Part shown: one piece after another, positions 15,329 to 61,436 of the stretch
How the letters are laid out: the number at the start of each line of letters is the position of its first letter
Position numbering within the stretch: position 1 is the stretch's first letter
Virus record (IMG/VR): IMGVR_UViG_2778261035_000005
DNA length: 64,000 nucleotides
Source of the DNA: a virus
Taxonomy: Duplodnaviria; Heunggongvirae; Uroviricota; Caudoviricetes
Reading direction: 5' to 3' (one strand)
Program-made: the position numbers and the translations under genes
The notes under the pieces: generated by a model
Told to the model about the DNA's origin: nothing
Seen by the model: only the letters and a program-made list of their open reading frames with translations
Databases searched by the model: none

Positions 15329-15595
15329 ATGACGTTAACCGATAAACAAAAGGACATCATCAAAACGCTCAATCTCGGTTATGAGCGAGGTCATCTACTT
15401 GACCTGGACGAATTGCTTGAAGTTTTGCCGTACAAGACAACCAAGCAAAGTATCCAGTTCTCAATTCGCGCTCTGATAAAAAAGGGGCTGGTGGAGAAAG
15501 GGCATACGCGCCAACGCAGTGACAATCGCTATCACCGCCGGACTCTTGGGTTAACCACTTTAGGTCGAGCCAAAGCGAAGTTACTGGTGATGTAA
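15329..15595 (+). CDS. small basic protein, possible winged-helix DNA binder
   Basis: 88-aa ORF; helix-rich basic segment SIRALIKKGLVEKG. Confidence 0.4.
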   Translation: MTLTDKQKDIIKTLNLGYERGHLLDLDELLEVLPYKTTKQSIQFSIRALIKKGLVEKGHTRQRSDNRYHRRTLGLTTLGRAKAKLLVM

Positions 15596-15626
15596 TCGGT
15601 CTGGGAGCTTATTTAAAGACCTGCAT

Positions 15627-15675
15627 CTGTATATATAAATAATAAGTAACTTATTAAATATATACGGAAGCAGGC
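15627..15675. repeat. ~50-bp AT-rich palindromic element, copy 1
   Basis: ctgtatatataaataataagtaacttattaaatatatacggaagcagg; near-identical copy at 47203-47252. Confidence 0.75.
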
Positions 15676-15710
15676 TTCGTAAGACATGCCAGACCTAATT
15701 AAACACCCCA

Positions 15711-15750
15711 GAAAACAAGTTGGTTAGCAGATGCAGTAAACAAGTTGTTT
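15711..15750 (+). promoter_or_regulatory. operator palindrome plus half-site (GAAAACAAGTTGG ... AAACAAGTTGTTT)
   Basis: Same motif family as left-arm cassettes. Confidence 0.5.
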
Positions 15751-15751
15751 T

Positions 15752-15780
15752 AGAGCGCATGGACGCGCTCTGTGTGTTTT
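15752..15780 (+). terminator. terminator-like hairpin in leader of packaging operon
   Basis: agagcgc-atggac-gcgctct followed by gtgtgtttt, 12 nt before TerS start. Confidence 0.45.
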
Positions 15781-15790
15781 AGAGGGATCT

Positions 15791-17705: not shown

Positions 17706-19280
17706 ATGGAATTGAACGACAAACAAATTAAGGATCTGGTGGCGCGACGCCACCCGGAATACGAAAAGAAAAAAGAACATTGGGACTTCCTCGCCAGCAC
17801 TTACGCTGGCGGGCGTGGTTGGTTTACAGACAATATCTTTCGTTACTTTAAAGAGGGAGATCAGGAGTTTAAGGAGCGAGTTGAACGTGCTTATCGCTTC
17901 AACCATACTCGTGAGGTGGTAAACCTCATCAACAAATATCTCTTTAAAGAAGACATTCATAGAAATATCGAAGAGGCACCAGAGCAGATCCGCATTTTCT
18001 GGAAACGTGCGACTCGCCAGAATGCCTCTATTGACTCATTTATGGCCGCTATTGATTTGCAGTCGTCTATTTACGGTCGCATATGGGTTGTTGTCGATAG
18101 CACGATGAGTGGTGATGTTGAGTCAGTAGCTGACGAGAAAAAGAAAGATGCTCGCGCCTACGCCTACTGGATTTCACCTCAGCAAATGCTGGATGTGGCA
18201 TGGGACGACGACGGGAATATGTTGTGGGCGTTAATTGTGGAAGTCGCTCGTGATGACGCAGATCCTTTTACTTCTACAGGTCAGGAATACCAACGTTATC
18301 GTCTGTGGACACAAAACGAGTGGTATCTGTTCCGTGAGGAAGTGAAGAAGGGCGCTGGTGGAGCAGGTCGCCGTCAGGCAAAAGTTATTTTAGAGGATAG
18401 CGGTGAGCATAATCTCGGCGTAGTTCCTGTGTTTCCTGTTGATTGTATTGGAGAAAGTGAATCACCGTATTTCAGCCCATCGTTGATCGATGATATCGCT
18501 TATCTTGATCGTGCGGTTGCAAACTATCTGTCAAACCTTGATGCCATTATTCAGGATCAGACATTTAGCCAGTTGGCTATACCGGTACAGTCGCTTTTAC
18601 CTGGTGATGAAAACCACACTAAAGTGCTTGAAATGGGCACAAAGCGAGTCTTCACCTACGATTCTGAAGGTGGAAACCAGCCGTTTTATCTGTCACCAGA
18701 CCCGAAACAAGCTCAGATGATCATCACTACGATTAAGACGGTGATTAACGAAATCTACCATTCAGTTGGTGTAGCTGGTGAGCGAACGAAGCAGGACAAC
18801 GCACAGGGAATCGATAATTCATCTGGTGCCGCAAAAATGTATGACTTCCAGCGTGTAAATAGCTTGCTTGTCACAAAAGCAGAGCGTCTGGAAAGGGCTG
18901 AACGCCAAATCATGCTACTGGTTGCGAAATGGATGGGGGTAGATCTGGACGAAGACCACTCTTTAATTGCGTATCCAGAAAGTTTCGATATTCGTGGCCT
19001 TACTGATGAATTTTCTGTTGCCGAGAAACTGTCATTACTTCAGGCACCGGACTCTGTACGTCGTCACCAGATGGAAATGCTTATTGAGAAGATTTTCCCG
19101 AACATTACTGAGGCGATGAAAAAGGAATTTGATAAAGATCTCTTGAATTTTCCTCCAAAAAATGATCTAAATACCCTTGAAAATAAGTCAGTACTTACTT
19201 ATGATCGTGGTACAGCCCAAGAAAGCGGGCAAGATCAACCCCGAGGGAATGGGGACTCATCTACTCAAGAGAACGAGTGA
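17706..19280 (+). CDS. portal protein
   Basis: 524-aa ORF directly after TerL; size and order. Confidence 0.7.
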   Translation: MELNDKQIKDLVARRHPEYEKKKEHWDFLASTYAGGRGWFTDNIFRYFKEGDQEFKERVERAYRFNHTREVVNLINKYLFKEDIHRNIEEAPEQIRIFWKRATRQNASIDSFMAAIDLQSSIYGRIWVVVDSTMSGDVESVADEKKKDARAYAYWISPQQMLDVAWDDDGNMLWALIVEVARDDADPFTSTGQEYQRYRLWTQNEWYLFREEVKKGAGGAGRRQAKVILEDSGEHNLGVVPVFPVDCIGESESPYFSPSLIDDIAYLDRAVANYLSNLDAIIQDQTFSQLAIPVQSLLPGDENHTKVLEMGTKRVFTYDSEGGNQPFYLSPDPKQAQMIITTIKTVINEIYHSVGVAGERTKQDNAQGIDNSSGAAKMYDFQRVNSLLVTKAERLERAERQIMLLVAKWMGVDLDEDHSLIAYPESFDIRGLTDEFSVAEKLSLLQAPDSVRRHQMEMLIEKIFPNITEAMKKEFDKDLLNFPPKNDLNTLENKSVLTYDRGTAQESGQDQPRGNGDSSTQENE

Positions 19281-20214: not shown

Positions 20215-21090
20215 ATGCCATTACTGCGTGAAGAAGCTGAAAAGCTGTCTAACAACGAACTTGAACAGGGTGTGATCGAAACTATCATCGATCGCGATGA
20301 CCTGTTTGCCATCCTGCCTTTTATGAAAATTAATTCAAAGGCATATCTGTACAACCGTGAAAAAACGCTGAGTGAAGCTACCTTCATCGACGTTAACGAC
20401 ACCATCCCTGAAGGTGCAGCAACCTTCGAAGAATGCGTTGCGAAACTGCGTATTCTGGCTGGTGACGTAGACGTTGATAAATTCCTGGCGACCACTATGG
20501 CCGACACCAACAACCAGTTGGCTATTCAGGTTCGTCAGAAAGTTAAAGGTCTGGCTCGTGCGTTCCGTCGCAACCTGATTTTGGGTGACTCCAGCTCCAA
20601 CAACAAGGCGTTTGACGGCATTCCACGCCTGATGCACGCAGATCAGAAGATCGATATCGCCGGTGCATCTATGACTTTCTCTATGTTCGACGAACTGGTC
20701 GATGCGGTGAAAGATCTTGGTGCTGACTGCATCATGATGCGTTCAGAGCACCTGCGTGCTTACCGTGCGCTGCTGCGTACAGTAAACGTAGGTCCGTCTG
20801 AAATCATGATGGAGAACTTCGGTCGTCCGATGCTGTGTCATAACGGCGTTCCGTTCATCATCAACGACTTCATCCCGACCGATGCTGGCAAAGCAAGCAT
20901 CTACTGCCTGCATCTGTCAGAAGAGAACGGCGTTACTGGTCTGTATGGCGGCGACAACGCAGGTATCGTTGTTGAAAACATTGGTACTGTACAGAACAAA
21001 GACGCAGTACGTACCCGTGTGAAGTGGTACTGCTCTCTGGCGAATAAGCACGATAAGGCTATCGCTGCACTGACCAATGTAAAAATTTAA
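20215..21090 (+). CDS. major capsid protein
   Basis: 291-aa ORF, strong RBS, followed by strong terminator; position after scaffold. Confidence 0.75.
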   Translation: MPLLREEAEKLSNNELEQGVIETIIDRDDLFAILPFMKINSKAYLYNREKTLSEATFIDVNDTIPEGAATFEECVAKLRILAGDVDVDKFLATTMADTNNQLAIQVRQKVKGLARAFRRNLILGDSSSNNKAFDGIPRLMHADQKIDIAGASMTFSMFDELVDAVKDLGADCIMMRSEHLRAYRALLRTVNVGPSEIMMENFGRPMLCHNGVPFIINDFIPTDAGKASIYCLHLSEENGVTGLYGGDNAGIVVENIGTVQNKDAVRTRVKWYCSLANKHDKAIAALTNVKI

Positions 21091-30816: not shown

Positions 30817-31152
30817 ATGGAAAGACAAACGTTTAATTGGTATCCAGATTACGAATCTGAAAAGAGCGTAAAACCGAATGTAACGGTACTTAATTTTGGT
30901 GATGACTACGAGCAGCGACAGGCTCAAGGTCTTAATCGTATTAAAGAAGAATGGTCGTTAACCTTTACCAGATCATACAACGAAATTAATGCAATCGATG
31001 ACTTCCTGACTGAGCGATCAGGTGTTGAATCGTTCTATTGGGTTAATCCAAGAGGCAAGCAGATTGTAGTTGTATGTGACAGTCATACGGTCAAGCGATA
31101 TCAGGGGTACTGTGTCTTAACTGCTACATTCAGACAAGTATTTGAGGCTTAA
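30817..31152 (+). CDS. minor tail protein (lambda M-like)
   Basis: 111 aa directly after tape measure; M-L-K-I-J order. Confidence 0.65.
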   Translation: MERQTFNWYPDYESEKSVKPNVTVLNFGDDYEQRQAQGLNRIKEEWSLTFTRSYNEINAIDDFLTERSGVESFYWVNPRGKQIVVVCDSHTVKRYQGYCVLTATFRQVFEA

Positions 31153-31234
31153 GCATCTGGATAAGTAAGTACTAATTTACTATCATTGTGGCGCTGACAG
31201 GATGTTAGCGCCTACTTATTTCAAGGATGAAACA

Positions 31235-31933
31235 ATGGGAATTAAAGCTGATATTCAGAGCTTATCTCCCTCTGCACTCATTGAGTTGTTCGTATTGGAT
31301 ATGTCGAACACAACTTCAGGGGGGAAGCTATTCTTCCACGCCGGAACAAACGAACTGATGCAACCGGTCGTCTGGCAAGGAGTGACATACGAGCCGTGGC
31401 CAATCAAAGCATCAGGCTTTGACAAAACTGGCCAGGGAACGTTGCCACGTCCAAAAATTCAGGTATCGAACTTTGCCGGAACCGTCTCTGCGGAAGTTCA
31501 GGCGAACGATGATCTTGTTGGCTGCCGCATTATTCGCAAGATGACGCTGGCTCGCTTCCTCGATGCCGTTAATTTTAAAGACGGCAACCCAACAGCAGAT
31601 CCAAACCAACATTTCCCGGATGAAATGTGGTTTATCGAACAGAAAACTCTCGAAACTCATCAGGTTGTCGAGTTTGAATTGTCCAGTGTGTTCGATTTGA
31701 TGGGGGTGCAACTGCCGTATCGTCAGATCATTAAAAACACCTGCCCGTGGAAATACCGAGGGCCAGAATGCGGCTATACCGGTCCATATTTCGACAAAAA
31801 TAACCAGCAGACGTCTATGTCTGGTGCGGATTACTGCACAAAACGTTATGACGCCTGTAATGCGCGTCGGAATTATTTTGCCGACGGTGTGATCCATTTT
31901 GGCGGATTTATTGGAGCTACGCGGTATGGGTAA
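31235..31933 (+). CDS. minor tail protein (lambda L-like)
   Basis: Cys cluster near C-terminus (CPWKYRGPECGY...C...C) as in L-type proteins. Confidence 0.7.
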   Translation: MGIKADIQSLSPSALIELFVLDMSNTTSGGKLFFHAGTNELMQPVVWQGVTYEPWPIKASGFDKTGQGTLPRPKIQVSNFAGTVSAEVQANDDLVGCRIIRKMTLARFLDAVNFKDGNPTADPNQHFPDEMWFIEQKTLETHQVVEFELSSVFDLMGVQLPYRQIIKNTCPWKYRGPECGYTGPYFDKNNQQTSMSGADYCTKRYDACNARRNYFADGVIHFGGFIGATRYG

Positions 31934-38142: not shown

Positions 38143-41100
38143 ATGTGGTACAGGGAAGGTACTATCACATTTACACAGGGTAGCAATACCCTCGTTGGTG
38201 TTGGAACAGCCTGGAACGTAACAGCTAATGGTGTGTTGCCGGGCATGATCGTCATTGGCCCCGACAATAAGCTGTATGAGATCAAGCGCGTAACCAGTGA
38301 TACAAACATTGTTCTCTCAGAACCTTATACCGGCGAAACTCAGTCTGAAGTTCCGTGCCGAATCATTACGACCTATGAAGGTGACTTAACGCAGTTTAGC
38401 GCGCGCTTTACTGCACTAATGTCGCGTATGTCGGCTGATTCCAAGTCTATGCGCAGTTGGTTGACTGCTCTTGATGAGGTGACAATCGAGCGTGAAGACG
38501 GTACAGAAGTGACCGTTAAGCCGCTAATGCAGATCGTCAACGAGCACAACGAAAACGTTGAGTGGTATAAAAATAACACTGACGCGATTGATGCTGCTGG
38601 CGACAAAGCTCGTGAGGCGGCGGCCAGTGCTGCCGCAGCGGCAGAAAGCGCCAATACCGCTGGAGAAAAAGCATCTCAAGCGTCTCAAAGTGCATCCGCT
38701 GCGGCATCCTCACAAAGTGCTGCAAGTGCGAGTGCAACTGCTGCGAAAAGATCTGAAACGAACGCAGAGGCCGCCAAAGAAGCGGCAGCAGAATCAGCGT
38801 CTGTAGCATCGACCAAAGCATCGGAGGCTGCAATATCTGCGTCCAGTGCCTCTGCATCTAAGGATGCAGCCAAAGCATCAGAGACTAACGCTTCATCGAG
38901 TGCAAACGCGGCTGCATCATCGGCAACAGAAGCTGCAAATTCCTCTAAGGCAGCAAAAACGTCAGAGGCAAACGCAAAAGCATCTGAAACGGCAGCCGAA
39001 CAGAGTGCATCGTCTGCAAACAGTTCGAAATCTGCGGCAGAAGCGTCAGCAAGTGCAGCCTCAGCAAGTGCGGATAGTGCTTCATCAAGTGCAACAGCGG
39101 CAGGAAAATCTGCGGATAGCGCATTGTCATCCGCGACAACAGCTACCACAAAAGCGACAGAGGCGACGAGTCAGGCTACAGCTGCTAAAAATTCAGCATC
39201 GGCAGCAAAAACCTCTGAAACAAATGCAAAGACCTCAGAAGACAATGCTGCTTCCTCTAAGGCGGCAGCTGCTGAATCTGCAAGTTCTGCGTCTGCATCA
39301 GCCACCTCAGCATCCGCTTCAAAAGATGAGGCGACCAAGCAGGCATCAGCAGCGAAGAGCAGTGCTTCAACGGCATCCACGAAGGCAACAGAGGCGGCAG
39401 GCAGTGCGACAGCTGCATCTCAGAGCAAAACTGCTGCTGAATCCGCTGCGACCCGTGCGGAAGCTGCCGCTGATCGTGCTGAAGAGATTGCCGGTGCAGT
39501 TGCGATGGAAGACGCAAGCCTTACCACCAAAGGTGTTGTGAAACTTAGCAGTGCTGTCGACAGCACCAGTGAATCGCTGGCCGCAACGCCAAAAGCAGTT
39601 AAAGCAGCCAATGACAATGCGAATAGCAGGGTGCCATCTAACCGAAAAGTTAACGGTAAAGCACTGACTGCGGATATCACATTAACGCCGAAAGATATTG
39701 GTACTTTAAATTCAGTAACGATGTCTTTCTCTGGCGGGGCTGGGTGGTTCAAACTGGCTACGGTTACCATGCCACAAGCGAGTTCCATCGTTTACATCGC
39801 ATTGATTGGTGGCGCTGGTTACAACGTCGGCTCCCCACATCAGGCAGGCATTTCAGAACTGGTTCTACGAGCAGGCAATGGAAACCCCAAAGGGATTACA
39901 GGTGCTTTGTGGAAGCGTACAGCTGTCGGATTAACGAATTTCGCCTGGATCAACACATCCGGCGATACATATGATATTTACGTTGAGATTGGCAATTATG
40001 CGACGAGTGTAAATATCCATTGGGATTGTACTGCAAATGCGACAGTTTCTATTTATACATCGCCAACATATTCAGCGAGTAAGCCTTCCAGCGTTACCGA
40101 TGGTGTTGTTTATACGATGTATAGCACACATCAGAAACCGACGCCGTTAGATATTGGTGCACTGCCAACAACCGGAGGAACAGTTTCAGGTCCGTTGTCT
40201 GTTACTGGTGGGATCACCGGAACATTAAATGGTAATGCAAGTACAGCAACGAAATTACAGACGGCAAGATCTATCGGTGGAGTTGGTTTCGACGGTTCTG
40301 CCAATATTAATCTTCCAGGTGTAAACACTACGGGTAATCAGAACACCACTGGTAATGCCGCAACTGCTACAAAACTACAGACGGCAAGAACTATCGGCGG
40401 CGTGAGCTTTGATGGTACTGCAAATATTAATTTGCCAGGTGTTAATACGACTGGTAATCAGAATACAACAGGTAATGCGGCTACTGCTACGAAGTTGCAG
40501 ACTGCGCGTACTATTAATGGGGTGTCGTTTGACGGTTCGGCAAATATTTCCTTGTCACCAGCAAATATAGGTTGCCCAGCATCTCCTACTGGTTGGTTAA
40601 CTACAGGAAGTAATGGCGGAGCAATAACAACAGCCCAGTTAGTGACGTTATTGCAAAATAATGGAGCCTTTAACACAAAGTCATGGATTGCTCGATGTGC
40701 GTGGGCCTATGCCAATAGTGCAACCATACCAAATAGTGAAACTGGTTGTGGCGTTATTCCATTGGCAGGAGCTGTTATAGAGGTATTTAATAACGGTAGT
40801 AGCTCAAACAATTATACGATCCGTATAACAACGGCCACAACGACGAGTGTCTCTGGTGCTCTCACTAATGCGGAGTTTATCTATGTATTTAATGGCACAG
40901 ATTATTCTCCAGGATGGCGAAGAGTATATAACACGAAAAACAAACCAACAGCCTCTGATGTCGGTGCATTACCTCTTACCGGTGGTACATTATCTGGAGG
41001 TTTGACATCTTCTGGCGAGATCATTTCAAAATATGCAAATGGTTTCCGCATTGCTTACGGTAGCTTTGGGTTCTTTATCCGTAATGATGGGTCGAACACA

Positions 41101-42171
41101 TATTTCATGCTAACAGCATCAGGAGACACATTAGGTTCATGGAACGGTTTGCGACCGATTACAATTAACAATACCAGCGGTGCTGTATCAATTGGTAATG
41201 GACTAAATGTGACTGGTGGCGTAAATGGTAGTTTGAACGGTAATGCTTCAACAGCTACGAAGTTGCAAACAGCGAGAAACATCAATGGTGTTAAGTTTGA
41301 TGGCTCAGGCGATATCAACATTAATACATTGGTATCTCGTGGCCGAGTTACGGCGTTAAGCGGTTCTGCTCAAGGTACTGCTGGCATTCAAATGTACGAG
41401 GCGTACAGCAATAGCTACCCGACCACGTATGGCAACGTATTGCACATGAAAGGTGCGAGTGCTGCTGGTGAGGGCGAGTTGCTTATTGGCTGGAGTGGTA
41501 CGAGCGGTGCACATGCGCCGGTTTTCATTCGCTCCCGAAGAGATACCACTGATGCGGCATGGTCAGCGTGGGCGCAGGTATATACCGCTAAGGATTCAAT
41601 ACCTGGTGTGAATACAACCGGTAATCAGAACACTACTGGTAATGCTGCCACCGCCACAAAATTGCAGACAGCAAGGAAAATTGCTGGTGTGGCGTTTGAT
41701 GGCTCTGCCGATATTACTTTGACTGCGGCTAACCTTAATGCCTATACGAAAACAGAGGTAACAAACCTTCTAAGTTCCTATGTGAAGAGCAGTGCTCTTC
41801 CAAGTATGACTGTGCGAACTTCCTCTGTTTCAGGTGGGGATATGGGCATGAGTTTGTCCACATTCATTAGCCACCTAAAATCAAATGGGGCGTTTAGCAA
41901 AAGTTATTGGATTGGCTTTGGCGATGCTATGGGATTCAATGCTGGCAGTATCAACAATATAACGGGATTTGGTGCTGTAGAATTAGCAGAATCTATAATC
42001 GAAGTTTTTAATCTACCTAACGGTGATTATACAATTCGTTTAACAACGTCACATAAAGCTGACTACGGTGGAGTTACAAACGCAATCCTCGTTTATCACT
42101 ACCGTAGTAATAGAAGTCCGTCAGGTCAATGGCTGAAATTTGCAGGTACTGTTGGGGCAACAAGTAACTGA
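38143..42171 (+). CDS. side tail fibre (lambda Stf-like)
   Basis: Ala/Ser-rich KTSETNAK-type repeats and repeated GNQNTTGNAATATKLQTAR...FDGSANINLPGVNTT motifs typical of Stf/long tail fibres. Confidence 0.8.
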   Translation: MWYREGTITFTQGSNTLVGVGTAWNVTANGVLPGMIVIGPDNKLYEIKRVTSDTNIVLSEPYTGETQSEVPCRIITTYEGDLTQFSARFTALMSRMSADSKSMRSWLTALDEVTIEREDGTEVTVKPLMQIVNEHNENVEWYKNNTDAIDAAGDKAREAAASAAAAAESANTAGEKASQASQSASAAASSQSAASASATAAKRSETNAEAAKEAAAESASVASTKASEAAISASSASASKDAAKASETNASSSANAAASSATEAANSSKAAKTSEANAKASETAAEQSASSANSSKSAAEASASAASASADSASSSATAAGKSADSALSSATTATTKATEATSQATAAKNSASAAKTSETNAKTSEDNAASSKAAAAESASSASASATSASASKDEATKQASAAKSSASTASTKATEAAGSATAASQSKTAAESAATRAEAAADRAEEIAGAVAMEDASLTTKGVVKLSSAVDSTSESLAATPKAVKAANDNANSRVPSNRKVNGKALTADITLTPKDIGTLNSVTMSFSGGAGWFKLATVTMPQASSIVYIALIGGAGYNVGSPHQAGISELVLRAGNGNPKGITGALWKRTAVGLTNFAWINTSGDTYDIYVEIGNYATSVNIHWDCTANATVSIYTSPTYSASKPSSVTDGVVYTMYSTHQKPTPLDIGALPTTGGTVSGPLSVTGGITGTLNGNASTATKLQTARSIGGVGFDGSANINLPGVNTTGNQNTTGNAATATKLQTARTIGGVSFDGTANINLPGVNTTGNQNTTGNAATATKLQTARTINGVSFDGSANISLSPANIGCPASPTGWLTTGSNGGAITTAQLVTLLQNNGAFNTKSWIARCAWAYANSATIPNSETGCGVIPLAGAVIEVFNNGSSSNNYTIRITTATTTSVSGALTNAEFIYVFNGTDYSPGWRRVYNTKNKPTASDVGALPLTGGTLSGGLTSSGEIISKYANGFRIAYGSFGFFIRNDGSNTYFMLTASGDTLGSWNGLRPITINNTSGAVSIGNGLNVTGGVNGSLNGNASTATKLQTARNINGVKFDGSGDININTLVSRGRVTALSGSAQGTAGIQMYEAYSNSYPTTYGNVLHMKGASAAGEGELLIGWSGTSGAHAPVFIRSRRDTTDAAWSAWAQVYTAKDSIPGVNTTGNQNTTGNAATATKLQTARKIAGVAFDGSADITLTAANLNAYTKTEVTNLLSSYVKSSALPSMTVRTSSVSGGDMGMSLSTFISHLKSNGAFSKSYWIGFGDAMGFNAGSINNITGFGAVELAESIIEVFNLPNGDYTIRLTTSHKADYGGVTNAILVYHYRSNRSPSGQWLKFAGTVGATSN

Positions 42172-45997: not shown

Positions 45998-46019
45998 TAA
46001 TTAAAGTGGAGTGATAATT

Positions 46020-46772
46020 ATGCATTCGTTAGTATTTGCATTTAAAAACATACTCAAGAATGTTATAAACATACTAGGGATGTTAAATATTTTTTTGTCT
46101 GTGAGGGTGAGGAGAAAAGATATAAAAGATAAATTAAAGGAACTTAACAAAGAAAAAGAACAATTAAAAAGCGAAGAAATTATTATTGATTTATACAAGA
46201 AAAAACTCGCATCTAGCAAGGGGAAAGCTAATGATAAAATCAAAGGAAAAATAATTCACTATATTATTGCTAGAGAGTTGGGGAATGATCCTGATAATGA
46301 AGATTTGCGACATAATCTTTTTACAAAGATAAAAGAATCAGAAGAACAGGTTGAAGTTCTGGTTCATCAAAGAGAAGTAAGTGAGCAGGCGAACAAAAAA
46401 GAAACGGTTGTCAATTTATTTTTATTGTATGAAAAAAATAAATTGTTTAAAGCTAAGGGGTTGGCTGTGTTTCTTATAGTTATAAACTTAATTATAGTTG
46501 CGACTCTCGATCTTCCAGCTTGGTCATTGATTATAAGTTTTTTTATTCTCTCTTTGATTATGTTGAAAGATCAGATACTTACTATTCGTGTCTCTAAAGG
46601 ATATTTTGGCACAAGTGCGTATGAAGCGGTTCAATTGCTTAAATTCATCAGAGAAAATTCAGACAAATTTGACTCAGATGATAATGACGGTAGCCCACGA
46701 CGGATATTGAATCCGAAGGGAACAACAAAAAAATCAGACAACCTATTCGATAAAGGGTGGCAAAATGTTTGA
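46020..46772 (+). CDS. AT-rich gene: membrane protein (about 250 aa)
   Basis: N-terminal TM, K/E-rich coiled-coil segment, two more TM helices; composition visibly more AT-rich than flanks. Confidence 0.55.
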   Translation: MHSLVFAFKNILKNVINILGMLNIFLSVRVRRKDIKDKLKELNKEKEQLKSEEIIIDLYKKKLASSKGKANDKIKGKIIHYIIARELGNDPDNEDLRHNLFTKIKESEEQVEVLVHQREVSEQANKKETVVNLFLLYEKNKLFKAKGLAVFLIVINLIIVATLDLPAWSLIISFFILSLIMLKDQILTIRVSKGYFGTSAYEAVQLLKFIRENSDKFDSDDNDGSPRRILNPKGTTKKSDNLFDKGWQNV

Positions 46773-47187
46773 CCTTGACGCCATCACTAAGTTCTTAAAT
46801 CAGTGTTTTGATCTACTTTTGCTCAAGCAGCCTTTAAGAACTGTTTTCGGAATACTGATTGGTTTCATTATTTTTGTTTTTGTTTACACGTTTAGGTTTG
46901 CGATAGCTCAAGATTTTTATGAAATAGATGGCGTGCATTACGCTGCATGTTTCGTCATCGGTGTTTTAGTTGTTCACACAAGAACATTTTTTGACGTTAT
47001 CAAGGGCACCGCAGTTGATGAAGAAATAGATAGTATGATCAGAGTTATTACGAAGCAGCCACACCTATCTAACCATCAAAAAAACATAATGATTGCTGAA
47101 ATACTTCAAAAAGAAATTGCAGCCATAAGTCAAAAGAGATTGGATAAAGTTGCACAAGAAATAACGGAGAAAAAGACAACTGATTAA
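46765..47187 (+). CDS. AT-rich gene: small membrane protein with two TM helices
   Basis: Overlaps stop of previous gene; hydrophobic segments LRTVFGILIGFIIFVFVYTF and VHYAACFVIGVLVV. Confidence 0.55.
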   Translation: MFDLDAITKFLNQCFDLLLLKQPLRTVFGILIGFIIFVFVYTFRFAIAQDFYEIDGVHYAACFVIGVLVVHTRTFFDVIKGTAVDEEIDSMIRVITKQPHLSNHQKNIMIAEILQKEIAAISQKRLDKVAQEITEKKTTD

Positions 47188-47202
47188 TTTAATTACCTGT
47201 TT

Positions 47203-47252
47203 CTGTATATAAATAATAAGTAACTTATTAAATATATATACGGAAGCAGGTC
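47203..47252. repeat. ~50-bp AT-rich palindromic element, copy 2
   Basis: ctgtatataaataataagtaacttattaaatatatatacggaagcagg. Confidence 0.75.
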
Positions 47253-47358
47253 TTTTAAAAGACACCCACCAGAACAACTCCCTTCCGTTTCCACTTCCAA
47301 AAACTGCCACCAGTCGCTATCATCCGCTCATTGTGATAAGTAAGTAACTACCTACCAG

Positions 47359-49573: not shown

Positions 49574-50755
49574 ATGAGCCTTTATGTTATATCAACATTT
49601 AGGTTGGTAACAATATTGCCTGTTAAAAGTGGAATTATCGTGAGCGAGCTGAAAGAGTTAATTACCGAATTAGATTTTGAACAATGGTTGGACACTGAAG
49701 GTATCGTTTATCGACGTGGAGGCGTGAGTACTCGCGGTCGTGAAGTGAATATCAAGGAGTGTCCGGTATGCGGCAGCTCCAACTGGAAGGTATATTTCAA
49801 TCTGACCAGTGGCGTCGGTAAATGCTTCGCTGGTGATCATCCCGAAGAGATTCAGTTCAATAAGCTGGTCTTCCTCAAGCACTACAGCGGCAAATCACGA
49901 CGACAGTTCGAGGAATATGTGCAGAACGCCCTTCTTTCCCAGGGGTGGGCACCAAAGAAAGAAGAGCTAGTGCTTGCAAGCACAGTCGAGTTAGAGGGGC
50001 CAGTTGCACTCCCTCGTCATTACGAACTTCCTATAGATGGCCGTCTTCCAGACTATCTGGTTGAACGAAATATATCGCCTGAAATGGCAAAGTATTTTGA
50101 CCTACGATACTGCGTCGAAGGTAAGCACGCCTATGTAGATCCGTATACAGATCAGGTTAAAGGACAGATATTCGATATGCGAATACTGATACCGGTTTAC
50201 GATCTGGATGGGGTAATGAAGACATTTCAGGGACGAGACATTACCGGTACAGCAGAACGCCGCTACCTCTTTCCTATGCAGCTTCCAGCTTCAGGTAAGT
50301 TTCTCTACAACGGCTATAATGCAGTCGGCAAACAGACTGTAGTTGTCTGTGAGGGGGCGTTCGATGTTATGGGGGTTAAACGAGCTATTTTTGACGAAGA
50401 AACATTACGTGATTACGTGGAACCAATAGGAACGTTCGGGATGCATCTATCTGGTAACACCACTCAGGATGCAGAAGATCAGTTAGGCGCGTTCCTGACG
50501 CTCAAGGCGCGTGGGTTACGTAATGTGATCATGATGTGGGATAGTGAAAAGCAAGCTATACGAAACACTATGGCCGCAGCCAGGCGACTGACCAGTATCG
50601 GTCTTAATGTGAAAATTGCATGTTTGGGCGAGGAAGGACTCGACCCCGGCGATGCGACCCCGGGGCAGATTATCAAAGCCTACTATTGCGCAAAACCTTA
50701 CTCACGACAGCTTGAACTTTTAAGCAAGGTAAAAGGCATAGCAGCATTAGTTTGA
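49574..50755 (+). CDS. DnaG-type primase (zinc ribbon + TOPRIM)
   Basis: CPVCGSSNW...CFAGDH zinc ribbon; TOPRIM VVVCEGAFD and MMWDSEKQ; start uncertain (49502 GTG / 49574 ATG). Confidence 0.75.
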   Translation: MSLYVISTFRLVTILPVKSGIIVSELKELITELDFEQWLDTEGIVYRRGGVSTRGREVNIKECPVCGSSNWKVYFNLTSGVGKCFAGDHPEEIQFNKLVFLKHYSGKSRRQFEEYVQNALLSQGWAPKKEELVLASTVELEGPVALPRHYELPIDGRLPDYLVERNISPEMAKYFDLRYCVEGKHAYVDPYTDQVKGQIFDMRILIPVYDLDGVMKTFQGRDITGTAERRYLFPMQLPASGKFLYNGYNAVGKQTVVVCEGAFDVMGVKRAIFDEETLRDYVEPIGTFGMHLSGNTTQDAEDQLGAFLTLKARGLRNVIMMWDSEKQAIRNTMAAARRLTSIGLNVKIACLGEEGLDPGDATPGQIIKAYYCAKPYSRQLELLSKVKGIAALV

Positions 50756-51892
50756 ACCAGTATTAGTCACGTACACATTGACCGAAAATGATTTAACTTC
50801 TGTGTTGAAGTTGTCAGTCATTACCGCGAGGTAGGCATTCTTGGTATCTCTGAATTGCTTCAGTATGATTTGAACGTTATCGGTGCAAACAAACGAGGTA
50901 GCCAGATTGCCTCCTTTCTCTGAAAAATCCTTCAGGAAGGTGCAGTCAACTTTGCCATCATTAGCGGTGAAGGTAGCATCATCACCCTGCCAGGTAAATG
51001 TAGCGTTAACGCCCTTATCAATGGATTTAGCAATAAGTCGCTGGGTGGCGGATTTTGTTTTGGCTTTGGAAGCCGGCGCTCGATATTTGCCGCTTTCTTT
51101 CAGTTCTGCAATGTAATCACAGCCATTTTTATCTTCTTTATCACAAGCAGCCTGATAAAGCTCAGCTGCTTTTTTATAGTCTTTTTTAACCCCTTCACCA
51201 TACTCATACATAATGCCAAGATTTGTCATGGCATCGGCGTTTCCGAGTTCAGCAGCTTTTTTATACCACTTAATTGCTTCGGCATCGTTGCGTTTAACAC
51301 CTAAACCGTCATCGTATAAGGTGCCTAATGCGAACATGCCATCTGAACTACCTTGATCCGCCGCTTTTTTGTAATAAGTAAAAGCTTTTTTATAACTCTT
51401 TTGTACACCTTTACCATATTGGTAATACGCACCAAGAAGGTAGCTAGCTTTAACATACCCGGCATCAGAGGCTAGATTGAAGTATTTAATGGCGAGCGCA
51501 TGATCTACTTTACCAAGCATCCCCTTTTGATAAATAGCACCAAGATTGTTATAGGCTCTACCTTCACGAGCATCTCCCGCAAGTTTGTAGTACTCAACTG
51601 CTTTATTTAAGTCTTTATCTACACCCTCGCCAAATGTGTACATAACCCCAAGTGCATAATATGCTACTTTGTCTCCCTTTTCTGCAGCGAGATCAATCCA
51701 CTTCTTGGCCTCAACTACATCCTTATCAAAACCATTGATACCATCAAAATAATTTGTCCCTAACTCACTTTGTGCTGCGGTATCCCCTGCGGTAGCGGCT
51801 TCTATCAGCGTTTGTTTATTGTCTGCGTTAACGAATCCAGAGCTAAAAAGCAAAGTTAATGCCAGCAACGATGAAGATTTTATGTATTTCAT
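50747..51892 (-). CDS. secreted Sel1-repeat protein
   Basis: Signal peptide MKYIKSSSLLALTLLFSSGFVNA, then ~8 Sel1-type repeats and a ~110-aa C-terminal domain. Confidence 0.8.
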   Translation of the reverse strand: MKYIKSSSLLALTLLFSSGFVNADNKQTLIEAATAGDTAAQSELGTNYFDGINGFDKDVVEAKKWIDLAAEKGDKVAYYALGVMYTFGEGVDKDLNKAVEYYKLAGDAREGRAYNNLGAIYQKGMLGKVDHALAIKYFNLASDAGYVKASYLLGAYYQYGKGVQKSYKKAFTYYKKAADQGSSDGMFALGTLYDDGLGVKRNDAEAIKWYKKAAELGNADAMTNLGIMYEYGEGVKKDYKKAAELYQAACDKEDKNGCDYIAELKESGKYRAPASKAKTKSATQRLIAKSIDKGVNATFTWQGDDATFTANDGKVDCTFLKDFSEKGGNLATSFVCTDNVQIILKQFRDTKNAYLAVMTDNFNTEVKSFSVNVYVTNTGSN

Positions 51893-52125
51893 ATTTTTTG
51901 TTCTGTTGATATAGGATGAACAGTTTAGACGCGGCAAGTGTCAAGTGTGCGAAAAATGGTACTTAAATTTAGTTAATATGTCAGCTTTGTTGATTTAGTT
52001 TATGGTCGGTAAAGTTACTAGGAAACTAATAACCATAAGAAATAGTACGTCATTTAATTATTGTGGCACTGCTCGTGTTTTGATTAACTAATACCTGCGA
52101 TAAATATAAATAAAGGGAAGCCAAC

Positions 52126-56140: not shown

Positions 56141-56682
56141 TTTTATGTATAAGATGACTTTGTTTTCGTTGAGACGCGACTGTTTGAACTTAAATACAAG
56201 TGCAAACGAAGAAGTCTATCTGGCAGTAGCCTAATAAGCCAAACACCAGCGAGGTCAGTTTCCAGCCTCGTTACCGAAATGGGACACACTGAGCGAGTGT
56301 GATTGCAGAACGCAGGAGGGAACATGAATGTTCCCTCCGATGAAGTAACAGAATGGGCGGTCAGTATATTTTCAACTCATATACGACTCCCGGATTCTTA
56401 TCCAATGACCGCCCATCCTGTTACGTCATTTTGTTCAATTATGTCGTTTATACTGGGTTAAAAAGCGGCGACGTAGCCCGGCTGGTATGGTTAGCCAGCA
56501 CACAACGTTGAGGCCATTACATTTTTATCAATTCTAAGGTTCTATTCACAGAGATACCGGCGAGCGTTGATATGTAACATGTTGGGCAAACATTCAATCG
56601 GAGTAGTGGCCTCAACGTTGTGAAGACAGGATAGTTGTGTAGGTTTAACCACTGTTGCCATTGGTGCCTGTTTTCACAACAA

Positions 56683-56888: not shown

Positions 56889-56963
56889 GATGGTGTAGCT
56901 CAGCGGTAGAGCAGTTGGCTGTTAACCAACTGGTCGGTGGTTCGAATCCACCCACCATCGCCA
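56889..56963 (+). tRNA. tRNA-Asn (anticodon GTT)
   Basis: Cloverleaf read by hand: acceptor gatggtg/caccatc, anticodon loop ctGTTaa, T-loop ggtggttcgaatccacc, 3' CCA. Confidence 0.85.
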
Positions 56964-56965
56964 AT

Positions 56966-57041
56966 GCCGGTTTAGCTCAGTTGGTAGAGCACCTGCCTTG
57001 TAAGCAGGATGTCAGCGGTTCGAATCCGTTAACCGGCACCA
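56966..57041 (+). tRNA. tRNA-Thr (anticodon TGT)
   Basis: acceptor gccggtt/aaccggc, anticodon stem cctgc/gcagg, loop ctTGTaa, T-loop ttcgaat, 3' CCA. Confidence 0.85.
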
Positions 57042-57254
57042 ACACAACAGGAAAGAGCATTGAGAACCGCCGAGACTGCCCTGTTTGAAGCGTAAGTCCG
57101 TGCAAACGTCATACAGTGCTCTTTTCGTTGTGGTGAATGCGGCTAAGCGCACGCGGGGAAATGGTTATATTGATCCTTTGTGATGACTATTGGCTCCGTC
57201 CACGGTGGATAACCAGCCAAAGGACACCGGGAAGCACCCGGCACCACAACAATT

Positions 57255-57341
57255 GGAGAGTAGGGAGCATGGTGCTCAAGCGGTCTTGAAAACCGTCCCA
57301 TTGCGCAAGCGATGATGGTTCGATTCCATTACTCTCCGCCA
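57255..57341 (+). tRNA. tRNA-Ser-like (anticodon TGA, long variable arm), D-arm atypical
   Basis: acceptor ggagagt/actctcc, anticodon loop ctTGAaa, variable-arm hairpin cattgc-gcaa-gcgatg, T-loop ggttcgattcc, 3' CCA. Confidence 0.6.
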
Positions 57342-60332: not shown

Positions 60333-61436
60333 ATGAAAAATAGCTTTGACAGAGCACGCGCTGCGGAGAACACCTCAAAAGAGGCGATTGAGTATCTCGA
60401 AAGAGCATCTCAAATGCAGGCCGTTATGATCTCCCAGGTCAGCAATGACATGAGATTCTCGGACGCATTCATGTTATTCACTCGCTTATCTCTGCTGATA
60501 ACAAGACGTCGGCCAGAGATCGCTGTTCATTGTATTTTGATACATGTTTTGCCGCACATTGCCGATGTAAAAGTAAGTGATATTAATAGGTTCATGGTGA
60601 ACCAACTGGTCAACCCACTAATACTGGATGGCAAAATTGTTATGGGTCGCCGCGTTTTCTCTCTGATGAAGCAGTTCCTCAGCTGGTGCGCCTTCCAGGG
60701 GATGATCGACGTGTCACCGTTAAACGATATGTCACTTAACAAAGTTGCCGGTGGCGCAAAGCCCACACCTCGCGAGCGGAAGCTAACCGACGCAGAGGTA
60801 TGGGTGTTCTGGAATATATGGGACTACTTCAATGTGTGTGCTGGTACAAAATGGGCGGCCAGGCTATGTCTTGTATCCGCAAGACGACCTGACGAAGTAC
60901 TGCGGGCTAAAAAAAGTGAGTTCAACCTCCAGCGTGGGGTTTGGAATCAAGGCAAGAGAAACAAATCAGCCCGTGAGCATTCTCTGCCTTTAAGCACATT
61001 AATGCGCACATGCATTGAAGAGTTATTCGAATATGGTAAAGGCAGCCAGTGGCTTGTGCCTTCGAATAAAAAAATCGGGAAAGATCTTCCGATGTCTAAA
61101 GTGGCAATAGCCCAGGCATTACGCCGTATCCTGGAACGACCAGAACTGATGGAGCTTGAGCCATTTACACCACGAGATTTGCGTCGTACTGCGCGTAGTT
61201 ACTTCCCAGCATTAGGCATAAGCCAGGAGGTATCACGTAAAATCATGAACCACAGTCTTGAGGGGATAGATCGGGTCTACGACCGGCACGATTATATGGA
61301 CGAGATGCGAGACGCCTTAGAAAGTTTCTCGACGTACATCGCATCAATCGTAGAGCAACCGGATTTAGACGAAATTGACCACAAATTCAAGGGAGATCGT
61401 CTATCGACAGAGCTTATTCGTGTAAATTTTTCATAG
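60333..61436 (+). CDS. tyrosine integrase / site-specific recombinase
   Basis: C-terminal catalytic motifs ...PRDLRRTARS... and NHSLEGIDRVYDRHDY (H-x-x-R ... Y). Confidence 0.75.
   Translation: MKNSFDRARAAENTSKEAIEYLERASQMQAVMISQVSNDMRFSDAFMLFTRLSLLITRRRPEIAVHCILIHVLPHIADVKVSDINRFMVNQLVNPLILDGKIVMGRRVFSLMKQFLSWCAFQGMIDVSPLNDMSLNKVAGGAKPTPRERKLTDAEVWVFWNIWDYFNVCAGTKWAARLCLVSARRPDEVLRAKKSEFNLQRGVWNQGKRNKSAREHSLPLSTLMRTCIEELFEYGKGSQWLVPSNKKIGKDLPMSKVAIAQALRRILERPELMELEPFTPRDLRRTARSYFPALGISQEVSRKIMNHSLEGIDRVYDRHDYMDEMRDALESFSTYIASIVEQPDLDEIDHKFKGDRLSTELIRVNFS

What the first reader, a model, noticed from the sequence alone, without database searches (positions are those of the whole stretch)
15627..15675. 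A ~50-bp AT-rich palindromic element present twice, 31.6 kb apart
The sequence ctgtatata(ta)aataataagtaacttattaaatatata(ta)cggaagcagg occurs at 15627-15675 (before the packaging operon) and 47203-47252 (before the replication module). The core aataagtaacttatt is a perfect palindrome, contains a T4-late-promoter-like TATAAATA, and is flanked by short GC clamps. It could be a strong shared promoter, a binding site (pac or parS-like), or a recombination hotspot delimiting a module.
Basis: seen in the sequence. Interest (0 to 1): 0.55.

Follow-up and report, generated by a model that had tools for sequence, protein, structure and literature searches.

The report
Repeated palindromic terminator hairpin at module borders
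The two matching AT-rich sequences are copies of a conserved 55-bp palindrome that occurs three times in every SSU5-type phage-plasmid checked. It sits right after the last gene of one gene block, and it most likely works as a transcription stop that shields the next block, so this is a neat but fairly ordinary regulatory element.

Summary
A 33-nt exact repeat lies at 15632-15664 and 47206-47238 (0 of 100 shuffles). The true unit is larger: a 55-bp imperfect palindrome (15620-15674; 47196-47250) with GC-rich 14-nt arms, CCTGCTTCCGTATA / TATACGGAAGCAGG, around an AT-rich centre.

The window is an E. coli SSU5/pHCM2-type phage-plasmid. Complete relatives (SSU5, Cyrano) carry three copies at the same relative positions:
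- before terS
- before the DnaB/primase module
- after the Dam methylase gene

About 800 PLSDB plasmids hold a match.

Each copy starts a few bases after a stop codon and lies about 110-119 nt ahead of the next start codon. Copies 2 and 3 are followed by a conserved T-tract on the coding strand; copy 1 never is. In published RNA-seq of the Cyrano lysogen, expression falls at least 100-fold across the gap that holds copy 2.

Best reading (about 0.55): a triplicated intrinsic-terminator/insulator hairpin at module boundaries. This is firm for copy 2 and weak for copy 1.

Unexplained:
- The arms are more conserved than the flanking genes.
- Symmetric outer boxes flank the arms.
- Cargo DNA junctions fall exactly at the left arm of copy 2.

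A DNA-level role is therefore not excluded. The promoter reading is not supported, and pac and parS readings get no positive evidence.

The parts
15620..15674 (+). Copy 1 core palindrome (55 bp): left arm CCTGCATCTGTATA 15620-15633, AT-rich centre with the inner palindrome AATAAGTAACTTATT 15641-15655, right arm TATACGGAAGCAGG 15661-15674. No T-tract follows (CTTCGTAAGAC).
   Evidence: RNA fold of 15596-15700 on the + strand is -44.2 kcal/mol, z = -9.2. Tail score -2.49, borderline.
15598..15607 (.). Left outer box GGTCTGGGAG. It starts 3 nt after the stop codon of the 88-aa ORF (15329-15595) and pairs with 15689-15695.
   Evidence: outer stem predicted in 8 lineages, conserved in sequence, no covariation
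15689..15695 (.). Right outer box CCAGACC, directly followed by the -10-like TAATTA at 15696-15701.
47196..47250 (+). Copy 2 core palindrome (55 bp): left arm CCTGTTTCTGTATA 47196-47209, inner palindrome 47215-47229, right arm TATACGGAAGCAGG 47237-47250. It starts 8 nt after the stop codon of ORF 46765-47187.
   Evidence: Core hairpin -23.3 kcal/mol. The + strand folds better than the - strand, -26.1 vs -19.6 kcal/mol.
47251..47256 (+). T-tract TCTTTT immediately 3' of the copy 2 hairpin, the U-tract of the predicted intrinsic terminator.
   Evidence: Tail score -3.64. At least 5 T in the first 8 nt in 84% of the distinct copy-2 flanks in relatives. Retained where the core is inverted.
47269..47275 (.). 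CCAGAAC box downstream of copy 2, the counterpart of the right outer box. The left outer box is missing here because cargo DNA abuts the left arm.
47310..47323 (+). Conserved CCAGTCGCTATCAT with the -10-like TATCAT at 47318-47323. Probable promoter of the replication module; the matching sequence after copy 3 in relatives is CTCCAGACGCTCTAGAAT.
   Evidence: inference from conservation only
15713..15750 (.). Two AAACAAGTTG(G/T)TT operator-like palindromes (15713-15725 and 15738-15750) between copy 1 and terS.
   Evidence: 14 sites in the window against 0.47 expected; conserved in relatives
15751..15781 (+). Small GC-rich hairpin plus T-tract directly before the terS ribosome-binding site: a second terminator or attenuator in the late-operon leader.
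   Evidence: -12.4 kcal/mol, tail score -3.4; compensatory change in L179

Best explanation
The element belongs to a three-copy family of 55-bp palindromes that is conserved in SSU5/pHCM2-type phage-plasmids. The arms are GC-rich and the centre is AT-rich.

Each copy sits a few bases after the stop codon of the last gene of one co-directional gene block. It lies about 110-119 nt ahead of the first gene of the next block: terS and the late genes, the DnaB/primase replication genes, and the genes after dam.

When transcribed on the coding strand it folds into a long hairpin closed by a stem of about 17 bp. At copy 2 (47196-47256), and at copy 3 outside the window, a U-tract follows directly, so RNA polymerase terminates there. 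This insulates the lytic replication module from the parA/cargo operon, which is expressed constitutively in the plasmid prophage.

Copy 1 (15620-15674) forms the same hairpin without a U-tract. It is at best a weak terminator or a 3'-end hairpin, and it is backed up by a small canonical terminator at 15751-15781 in the terS leader.

What is shown: the repeat, the hairpin potential, the positions, the T-tract statistics, and the gene-level expression step at the Cyrano copy 2. What is inferred: that termination happens at the hairpin itself, the role of copy 1, and that the identity between copies comes from duplication plus gene conversion.
For: Family and copy number:
- The window is an SSU5-like phage-plasmid.
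- SSU5 and Cyrano each have three copies at the same relative positions.
- The element is present in 74/76, 78/80 and 71/73 loci found through the downstream gene. All six misses are loci with little upstream sequence.
- 800 PLSDB plasmids hold a match, at 2,802 places.

Hairpin:
- Core -23 kcal/mol. For the ~105-nt stretches, z = -9.2 and -5.7 against shuffles.

T-tract:
- At least 5 T in the first 8 nt after the right arm in 84% of copy 2 flanks and 81% of copy 3 flanks, against 0% for copy 1.
- Tail score at or below -2.5 in 97% and 100% of cases, against 20% genome background.
- The T-tract stays on the coding-strand side when the core is flipped.

In vivo (Cyrano lysogen RNA-seq table, PMC9928086 supplementary file 2):
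- CYRAN_28/29/30 average 49.8 / 89.1 / 54.6, against 6.2 for CYRAN_31.
- In 8 of the 10 log2(FPKM+5) columns, values are 8.6-10.4 against 2.6-4.2 (2.32 equals zero expression).
- The step falls across the 193-nt gap that holds copy 2 (31159-31211).

Sequence variation:
- Non-Watson-Crick arm variants are mostly G-U on the coding strand: 50 against 11 that would be G-U only on the other strand.

More distant relatives:
- They have other hairpins with T-tracts in the same gaps: K. oxytoca pCAV1099-111, Xenorhabdus and the K. michiganensis type, and a canonical terminator after the parA operon in GCA_022968745.
Against: - Copy 1 has no T-tract in any lineage of the core family.
- The arms are more conserved (0.90-0.97 mean pairwise identity) than the flanking coding DNA (0.78-0.82).
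- Covariation is marginal: 3 compensated pairs, reached by 24 of 500 shuffles. At arm position 9 the two sides vary independently.
- RNAalifold covariation terms are positive.
- The coding-strand wobble bias is absent in copy 3 (9 vs 7), and there the other strand folds better in 12 of 20 cores.
- Conserved symmetric outer boxes lie beyond the T-tract, so they would not be part of a terminated RNA.
- In GCA_022968745, a different palindrome and the parA-operon terminator are separate entities, and the palindrome flanks a cargo gene on both sides.
- The RNA-seq evidence is at gene level, from a relative, and covers one of the three copies only.
Confidence: 0.55

Rival explanations
1. DNA-level cis site. 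The invariant arms, and possibly the outer CCAGAC boxes, are bound by a phage protein, or the palindrome extrudes as a cruciform or hairpin in DNA. It would then serve lytic replication (an AT-rich unwinding element flanked by binding boxes), or give programmed breaks that start T4-type recombination-dependent replication, or act in packaging initiation at copy 1.
For: - The arms are more conserved than the neighbouring genes, and covariation is weak.
- Symmetric outer boxes, and extra CCAGA(A)C boxes downstream.
- Copy 1 keeps the palindrome without a T-tract and lies just upstream of terS/TerL.
- Function seems independent of orientation, because the core flips in place.
- The genome encodes T4-like UvsW, UvsY, gp32-like SSB, a RecA-like protein, SbcCD-like proteins and a RuvC-like protein, according to the Cyrano annotation.
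- Distant relatives have long AT-rich, GC-clamped palindromes before terS.
- The SSU5 record is broken inside copy 1.
Against: - Arm-to-arm distance varies (cores of 51-57 bp, (TA)n slippage), which is awkward for a protein bridging both arms.
- GC skew shows no inflection at the copies.
- The SSU5 record break falls exactly where SSU5 copies 1 and 2 stop being identical. That fits an assembly break at a repeat rather than a physical end (inference).
- Three pac or cos sites per genome would be unusual.
- The T-tracts tied to the coding strand need a transcriptional explanation anyway.
Confidence: 0.2
2. Recombination linker. The main significance is evolutionary: identical 55-bp sequences at the three module borders act as portable homology or a fragile palindrome where modules and cargo are exchanged between phage-plasmids.
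For: - Homology to six relatives begins at window 47183-47206, the left arm of copy 2.
- 15 clusters of upstream flanks against 3 downstream for copy 2.
- Mosaic arm alleles: CCTGCTTCCG and CCTGCGTCTG occur in all combinations.
- Lineage-specific centre variants are shared by copies 1 and 2, which indicates gene conversion.
- In-place inversions.
- In GCA_022968745 a cargo gene is flanked by two copies of another palindrome.
Against: - Copies 1 and 3 show no flank turnover (1-2 upstream and 2-3 downstream clusters).
- Variability upstream of copy 2 may simply reflect an accessory region that ends at an essential element.
- This reading does not explain the T-tracts, the purifying selection on the arms or the fixed distance to the next gene.
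- No site-specific recombinase is conserved. The integrase at 60333-61436 is absent from the SSU5 annotation.
Confidence: 0.1
3. RNA hairpin that does not act by termination: an RNase III processing site or a 3'-end stabiliser, comparable to the T7 intercistronic RNase III sites or lambda sib, where read-through RNA forms the longer outer stem.
For: - Long near-perfect dsRNA: a stem of about 17 bp, an inner stem of 7-8 bp and an outer stem of 7-8 bp; -44 kcal/mol for copy 1.
- The outer stem would form only in read-through RNA at copies 2 and 3.
- Conserved primary sequence among copies is also a feature of the T7 RNase III sites (own knowledge).
Against: - No covariation in the outer stem.
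- No Rfam family matches.
- The left outer box is lost at copy 2 in this window and in several lineages without loss of the core.
Confidence: 0.1
4. Shared promoter (T4-late-like TATAAATA or sigma-70) driving the packaging and replication operons.
For: TATAAATA is present in both copies on the coding strand, and both copies lie upstream of operons.
Against: - The motif is variable in relatives (TATAACTA, TAAATAAATA, TACTAAATA) and moves to the other strand where the core is inverted.
- The scan finds no sigma-70-like promoter on the coding strand in the element.
- Separate conserved promoter-like blocks lie 20-70 nt downstream.
- Genes downstream of the Cyrano copies 1 and 2 are silent in the lysogen.
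- No gp55-like factor is annotated (not tested further).
Confidence: 0.03

Closest known systems
Rho-independent (intrinsic) terminators, for example lambda tR' or T7 T-phi
   Same: A GC-clamped stem-loop directly after a stop codon. Copies 2 and 3 are followed by a T-tract on the coding strand. There is a large expression step across the site in vivo (relative).
   Different: - The hairpin is unusually long (55 nt) with an AT-rich, partly unpaired upper half.
- The same sequence is used three times per genome and is conserved across at least 8 genera.
- One of the three copies has no T-tract.
- Symmetric outer boxes are present.
Lambda sib/tI retroregulator (a terminator nested in a longer RNase III hairpin)
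   Same: An inner terminator hairpin lies within a longer inverted repeat whose outer arms would pair only in read-through RNA (copy 3, and ancestral copy 2).
   Different: No evidence of RNase III cleavage. The outer stem shows no covariation and is dispensable at copy 2 in this window.
REP/BIME and ERIC-type intergenic repeated palindromes of enterobacterial chromosomes
   Same: Multi-copy imperfect palindromes placed after stop codons. In those families they can stabilise mRNA, terminate transcription and bind proteins. They evolve in concert.
   Different: Only three copies, at fixed syntenic positions in a phage-plasmid. There is no sign of mobility and no RAYT transposase. The sequence is unrelated.
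Conserved boundary ('linker') sequences between modules of lambdoid phages
   Same: A short conserved non-coding sequence at module borders that coincides with homology breakpoints (copy 2).
   Different: Here the sequence is a strong palindrome with terminator features. Breakpoints are seen at one of the three sites only.
loxP and other Cre-family target sites
   Same: The arm CTGCTTCCGTATA resembles the loxP repeat ATAACTTCGTATA (own knowledge of loxP). The host element is a phage-plasmid, like P1.
   Different: The spacer is 27 bp instead of 8. The only tyrosine recombinase in the window has no detectable PDB relative and is missing from the SSU5 annotation. The resemblance is treated as chance.
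Viral origins with an AT-rich palindrome flanked by initiator boxes (for example HSV oriS)
   Same: An AT-rich centre between inverted conserved boxes, several copies per genome, and one copy next to replication genes.
   Different: No initiator has been identified, there is no skew signal, and the T-tracts are tied to the direction of transcription.

Membership tests
Intrinsic (Rho-independent) terminator | Stable GC-rich stem-loop in the transcript | tested here: met
   Core hairpins -23.5 and -23.3 kcal/mol. For the ~105-nt stretches, z = -9.2 and -5.7 against shuffles.
Intrinsic (Rho-independent) terminator | U-tract immediately 3' of the stem on the transcribed strand | tested here: inconclusive
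   Copy 2: TCTTTT, tail score -3.64, conserved in 84-97% of relatives. Copy 1: CTTCGTAAG, tail score -2.49, and no lineage has at least 5 T in 8. Met for copy 2, not met for copy 1.
Intrinsic (Rho-independent) terminator | Located downstream of a co-directional gene or operon end | tested here: met
   The cores start 25 nt (copy 1; its outer box 3 nt) and 8 nt (copy 2) after the stop codons of the + strand ORFs 15329-15595 and 46765-47187.
Intrinsic (Rho-independent) terminator | Transcript level drops across the site in vivo | tested here: met
   Gene level only, in the relative Cyrano: CYRAN_30 averages 54.6 against 6.2 for CYRAN_31. In 8 of the 10 log2(FPKM+5) columns, 8.6-10.4 against 2.6-4.2. 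Copies 1 and 3 are uninformative because both sides are near background. Not testable for this window itself.
cos / pac packaging site | Adjacent to the terminase genes | tested here: inconclusive
   Copy 1 is 116 nt upstream of the terS-like gene. Copies 2 and 3 are about 31 kb and about 78 kb away.
cos / pac packaging site | Virion DNA ends map to the site | not testable with these tools
   The SSU5 and Cyrano records start inside copy 1. The break coincides with the point where SSU5 copies 1 and 2 diverge, as expected for an assembly break at a repeat, and Cyrano shares the SSU5 start point. No end-mapping data were found.
parS-type centromere | Site next to its parAB operon and bound by the cognate ParB | not testable with these tools
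   ParB_N-domain genes lie 1.9-3.2 kb upstream of copy 1. A ParA-like gene lies 1.6 kb upstream of copy 2. Three dispersed copies and a variable spacer do not resemble known plasmid centromeres (own knowledge). Binding was not tested.
Cre/lox-type recombination site | Two 13-14-bp inverted repeats around a 6-8-bp spacer | tested here: not met
   The arms are separated by 23-29 bp.
Cre/lox-type recombination site | Cognate tyrosine recombinase conserved with the site | tested here: not met
   The integrase at 60333-61436 (Pfam Phage_integrase) has no PDB sequence relative. No integrase is annotated in SSU5, which has all three copies.
T4-type late promoter | Invariant TATAAATA at -10 in a fixed orientation, used by a gp55-like sigma factor | tested here: not met
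   The motif varies and changes strand in relatives. It occurs 5 times in the window against 1.9 expected. A search for a gp55 homologue was not done.
Replication origin | Unwinding element plus initiator sites, with a compositional skew switch | tested here: inconclusive
   An AT-rich centre and repeated CCAGA(A)C boxes exist. There is no skew inflection in Cyrano. The neighbouring 249-aa protein has no initiator-like fold. The plasmid repA/iteron region is elsewhere.

The most novel reading that the evidence does not exclude
The palindromes may not be mere terminators. They could be dedicated cis sites of the SSU5-type lytic programme. The sequence-invariant arms, and possibly the CCAGAC boxes, would be recognised by a phage factor, or the palindrome would extrude as a hairpin or cruciform. 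The result would be one of two things. Either a regulated (antiterminable) module switch, or programmed breaks or unwinding sites that let a circular plasmid prophage start T4-like recombination-dependent replication. The second would also make the sites hotspots for module and cargo exchange.
Probability: 0.2. Interest if true: 0.65.

Novelty: new member of a known kind. Interest (0 to 1): 0.38.

Why it matters
SSU5/pHCM2/pMT1-type phage-plasmids are common in clinical Enterobacterales: 800 PLSDB records hold a match. Some members carry resistance genes (the phage name vB_Kpn_1825-KPC53 implies blaKPC; not checked here).

A conserved three-copy terminator/insulator would explain how a plasmid prophage keeps its lytic replication and packaging modules silent. 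Neighbouring maintenance and cargo genes are transcribed in the same direction.

The element marks the exact downstream edge of the cargo-variable region. It gives a simple 28-nt signature (the two arms) for finding module borders and cargo-insertion points in this family.

It also warns that database records and short-read contigs of these elements tend to break at the repeat. If the arms turn out to be protein or structure targets, they would be the first cis sites defined for the lytic cycle of this group.

Tried and rejected
- **Chance repeat:** rejected.
- **Physical genome end (cos):** the SSU5 and Cyrano records start inside copy 1. The break is exactly where SSU5 copies 1 and 2 diverge, so an assembly artefact is more likely. 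Several IMG/VR contigs also begin near a copy. No end-mapping literature was found.
- **lox-like site:** the arm resembles the loxP repeat. The spacer is 27 bp, and the integrase is not detectably related to Cre and is not conserved.
- **Sigma-54 or another promoter in the outer boxes:** no match by eye. A general CCAGAC-N-TAnnnT promoter class is not enriched in the window (6 hits against 5.0 expected).
- **CTCCCAGAC as a genome-wide motif:** not enriched (9 against 8.6).
- **Rfam:** only sub-threshold miRNA-hairpin noise.
- **GC skew for an origin:** no inflection.
- **Covariation proof of an RNA structure:** marginal only.
- **Function of neighbouring genes:**
  - The 88-aa ORF gives only very weak winged-helix regulator hits.
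- **Literature:** searches for SSU5, pHCM2 and pMT1 with palindrome, cos, PhageTerm or inverted repeat found no description of the element. The SSU5 genome note, the D6/plasmid-prophage paper and a 2026 preprint were not held.
- **Second palindrome family:** TTAATGCTAATG..CATTAGCATTAA, found in a distant relative, is absent from the window, SSU5 and Cyrano.

Full report

Yes. The sequences are at the stated places.
- The repeat finder reports an exact 33-nt direct repeat at 15632-15664 and 47206-47238 (D19).
- A 27-nt core allowing three mismatches hits only these two sites, with zero matches in 100 dinucleotide shuffles.
- The inner AATAAGTAACTTATT is a perfect 7+1+7 palindrome.

It is a 55-bp imperfect palindrome at 15620-15674 and 47196-47250.
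- Left arms: CCTGCATCTGTATA (copy 1) and CCTGTTTCTGTATA (copy 2).
- Right arm: TATACGGAAGCAGG in both.
- Centre: AT-rich.

Copy 1 has further symmetric boxes outside the arms: GGTCTGGGAG at 15598-15607 and CCAGACC at 15689-15695.

**2. What the window is**

The window is 98-99.7% identical over the tested 2 kb to E. coli SSU5-like phage-plasmids (CMS-2020a, PhiR41_1, Cyrano). It is about 80% identical to Salmonella phage SSU5.
- Copy 1 lies between an 88-aa ORF (15329-15595) and the terS-like and TerL genes.
- Copy 2 lies between ORF 46765-47187, the last gene of a ParA-led block, and a 249-aa ORF followed by DnaB-like helicase and primase.

**3. It is a three-copy family at fixed positions**

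Complete SSU5 and Cyrano genomes each hold three copies:
- before terS
- before the 249-aa/DnaB/primase genes (SSU5 33458, Cyrano 31159)
- between the Dam methylase gene and a small ORF (about 78.1-78.3 kb)

The window contains the first two.

I sampled relatives through the downstream protein-coding gene rather than through the element sequence. The palindrome was present in 74/76, 78/80 and 71/73 loci. The six exceptions are loci with too little upstream sequence.

It also occurs in Yersinia pestis pMT1, Kluyvera and Buttiauxella. In PLSDB, 800 plasmids hold a match, at 2,802 places. They are mostly non-mobilizable replicons of about 105-115 kb, from Klebsiella, Escherichia, Enterobacter, Yersinia, Salmonella, Citrobacter, Cronobacter and Shigella.

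**4. Anatomy across the family**

- Arm positions 1-4, 7, 10 and 11 are invariant, and positions 12-14 nearly so, in 68 distinct cores. Variation sits mainly at positions 5, 6, 8 and 9.
- The centre stays AT-rich but varies. (TA)n slippage gives cores of 51-57 bp.
- Every copy starts a few bases after the upstream stop codon.
- Every copy ends about 110-119 nt before the next start codon.

The outer boxes GTCTGGGAG and CTCCCAGAC flank copies 1 and 3, and ancestral forms of copy 2. In this window, cargo DNA abuts the left arm of copy 2.

The core is flipped in place in some lineages while the flanks stay put:
- Cyrano copy 2 against SSU5 copy 2
- L228 against the window's copy 2
- apparently also SSU5 copy 3 against Cyrano copy 3

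Copies in one genome share lineage-specific centre variants, which indicates gene conversion. Both window copies have AATAATAAGT, and SSU5 copies 1 and 2 both have AATACTAAGT.

**5. Evidence for a terminator**

The transcribed (+) strand folds into a long hairpin.
- The cores fold at -23.5 and -23.3 kcal/mol.

A T-tract follows the right arm at copies 2 and 3. The table uses the distinct flank sequences from relatives.

| Copy | At least 5 T in first 8 nt | Tail score ≤ -2.5 | This window |
|---|---|---|---|
| 1 | 0% | 37% | CTTCGTAAG, -2.49 |
| 2 | 84% | 97% | TCTTTT, -3.64 |
| 3 | 81% | 100% | outside the window |

The genome background for a tail score at or below -2.5 is 20%. The scoring is my own implementation of the usual tail formula. 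The T-tract stays on the coding-strand side even where the core is inverted and the surrounding sequence has diverged.

Independent in-vivo support comes from the Cyrano lysogen expression table (PMC9928086, supplementary file 2).
- CYRAN_28, 29 and 30 (the ParA block, ending at 31134) average 49.8, 89.1 and 54.6.
- CYRAN_31 (starting at 31328) averages 6.2.
- In 8 of the 10 log2(FPKM+5) columns the values are 8.6-10.4 against 2.6-4.2, where 2.32 means zero expression.

That is a step of at least 100-fold across a 193-nt gap whose only strong structure is copy 2 (31159-31211). For copies 1 and 3 both sides are near background, so the table says nothing about them.

More distant relatives have different hairpins in the same gaps, often with T-tracts:
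- K. oxytoca pCAV1099-111 has a diverged palindrome plus T8 before terS. It has GC-rich terminator hairpins nested in longer inverted repeats at the other two gaps.
- Xenorhabdus and K. michiganensis-type elements have T-tracts too.

**6. What does not fit a plain terminator**

- Copy 1 never has a T-tract.
- The arms are more conserved (0.90-0.97 mean pairwise identity) than the flanking coding DNA (0.78-0.82) and the immediate flanks (0.69-0.73).
- Pairing is kept in 95.8% of cells, mostly through invariance. Only three pairs show compensated changes, which 24 of 500 shuffles also reach.
- At arm position 9 the four combinations CG, TG, TA and CA occur 20, 32, 10 and 6 times, close to independence.
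- RNAalifold covariation terms are positive.
- Non-Watson-Crick variants are mostly G-U on the coding strand: 50 against 11. This leans towards an RNA or + strand hairpin constraint. But the bias is carried by copy 2, it is absent in copy 3, and the counts are not independent events.
- The conserved outer boxes lie beyond the T-tract.
- In one distant K. pneumoniae element, another palindrome flanks a cargo gene on both sides, while a separate canonical terminator ends the ParA operon.

**7. Alternatives examined**

*Packaging site.* Only copy 1 is near the terminase genes. The SSU5 and Cyrano records start inside copy 1. The break is exactly where SSU5 copies 1 and 2 stop being identical, which fits an assembly break at a repeat; this is inference. 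Cyrano starts at the same point as SSU5.

*lox-like site.* The arm resembles the loxP repeat. The spacer is 27 bp, and the window's integrase is neither detectably related to Cre nor conserved in SSU5.

*Promoter.* TATAAATA is neither invariant nor fixed in strand. Conserved promoter-like blocks lie downstream instead:
- CTCCAGTCGCTATGAT after copy 2
- CTCCAGACGCTCTAGAAT after copy 3
- TAATTA plus two AAACAAnTTGTTT palindromes after copy 1

*Known RNA family.* None.

*Literature.* No description was found in the held library.

**8. Recombination aspect**

In the copy-2 locus, homology to all six phage records begins at window 47183-47206. Among relatives, the 40 nt upstream of copy 2 fall into 15 clusters at 70% identity, against 3 downstream. 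The core itself forms a single cluster.

The element is therefore the fixed downstream edge of a cargo-variable region. Mosaic arm alleles and in-place inversions show that recombination occurs within it. Copies 1 and 3 show no such turnover.

**9. Verdict**

The finding is real and belongs to a widespread, conserved three-copy family.
- Most likely function: a terminator/insulator hairpin at module borders. I put this at about 0.75 for copy 2 and about 0.3 for copy 1 acting as a terminator, and about 0.55 for the family overall.
- Secondary role: a recombination junction.
- Not excluded (about 0.2): a DNA-level or factor-specific role, suggested by the over-conserved arms, the outer boxes and the T-tract-less copy 1.

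It is a new member of a known kind and of moderate interest.

Noticed in passing
window 1123, 1174, 2787, 3973, 4457, 5360, 6110, 6595, 15713, 15738, 44893, 46436, 48120, 62348: The palindrome AAACAAnTTGTTT occurs 14 times (up to 1 mismatch) against 0.47 expected. It is embedded in longer promoter-like repeats (..GATAAT..AGAAAACAAnTTGTTT) upstream of + strand genes, including parA, DnaB and terS. It is probably a shared operator or promoter class of the prophage regulatory circuit.
   Followed up: partly
window 12384, 17675, 21098, 31160, 42291, 47335; related palindromes at 19183, 24674, 38080, 56116: A GATAAGTAAGTAnCTACCTA motif family lies just upstream of start codons. It carries stop codons in all three frames. 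It is conserved in relatives in front of the 249-aa replication-module gene. Function unknown.
   Followed up: no
window 15751-15781: A small GC-rich hairpin with a T-tract sits immediately before the terS ribosome-binding site. It is conserved in relatives, with a compensatory GC-to-AU change in L179. It looks like a leader terminator or attenuator of the late operon, as with lambda tR'.
   Followed up: partly
NC_018843.1 (SSU5) and OV696614.1 (Cyrano), record ends; IMG/VR contigs L014, L039, L090, L093, L100: Public records and short-read contigs of this family are often broken at or inside the palindrome. The SSU5 break is exactly where its copies 1 and 2 diverge, which suggests assembly breaks at a repeat rather than true genome ends.
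   Followed up: partly
window 46011-47187 and the equivalent region in L223-L302: The genes between the ParA block and copy 2 differ between otherwise near-identical elements. In Cyrano the block before copy 2 comprises ParA, a RelE/ParE-like gene and a hypothetical gene. This looks like a cargo hotspot whose downstream edge is the left arm of copy 2.
   Followed up: partly
NZ_CP011594.1 (L380-L382): 20670-20850, 56245-56585, 108525-108720: In K. oxytoca pCAV1099-111 the three syntenic gaps hold diverged structures. Gaps 2 and 3 share a direct repeat of about 50 nt, and both have GC-rich terminator hairpins nested inside longer inverted repeats.
   Followed up: no
L383 1290-1335 and 1835-1880 (K. 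pneumoniae GCA_022968745.1): A different palindrome, TTAATGCTAATG..CATTAGCATTAA, flanks a minus-strand cargo gene on both sides just upstream of the replication module. The same palindrome occurs in four IMG/VR contigs; one, L384, comes from a contig that also carries a copy 3 of the element (L340). It is absent from the window, SSU5 and Cyrano.
   Followed up: partly
[not shown]
   Followed up: partly
window 56889-57341; 40195-41732; 50747-51937: A tRNA-Asn/Thr/Ser cluster. Repeats with a 120-nt period in the tail-fibre gene (D1/D2). A minus-strand Sel1-repeat gene with a 216-nt period.
   Followed up: no
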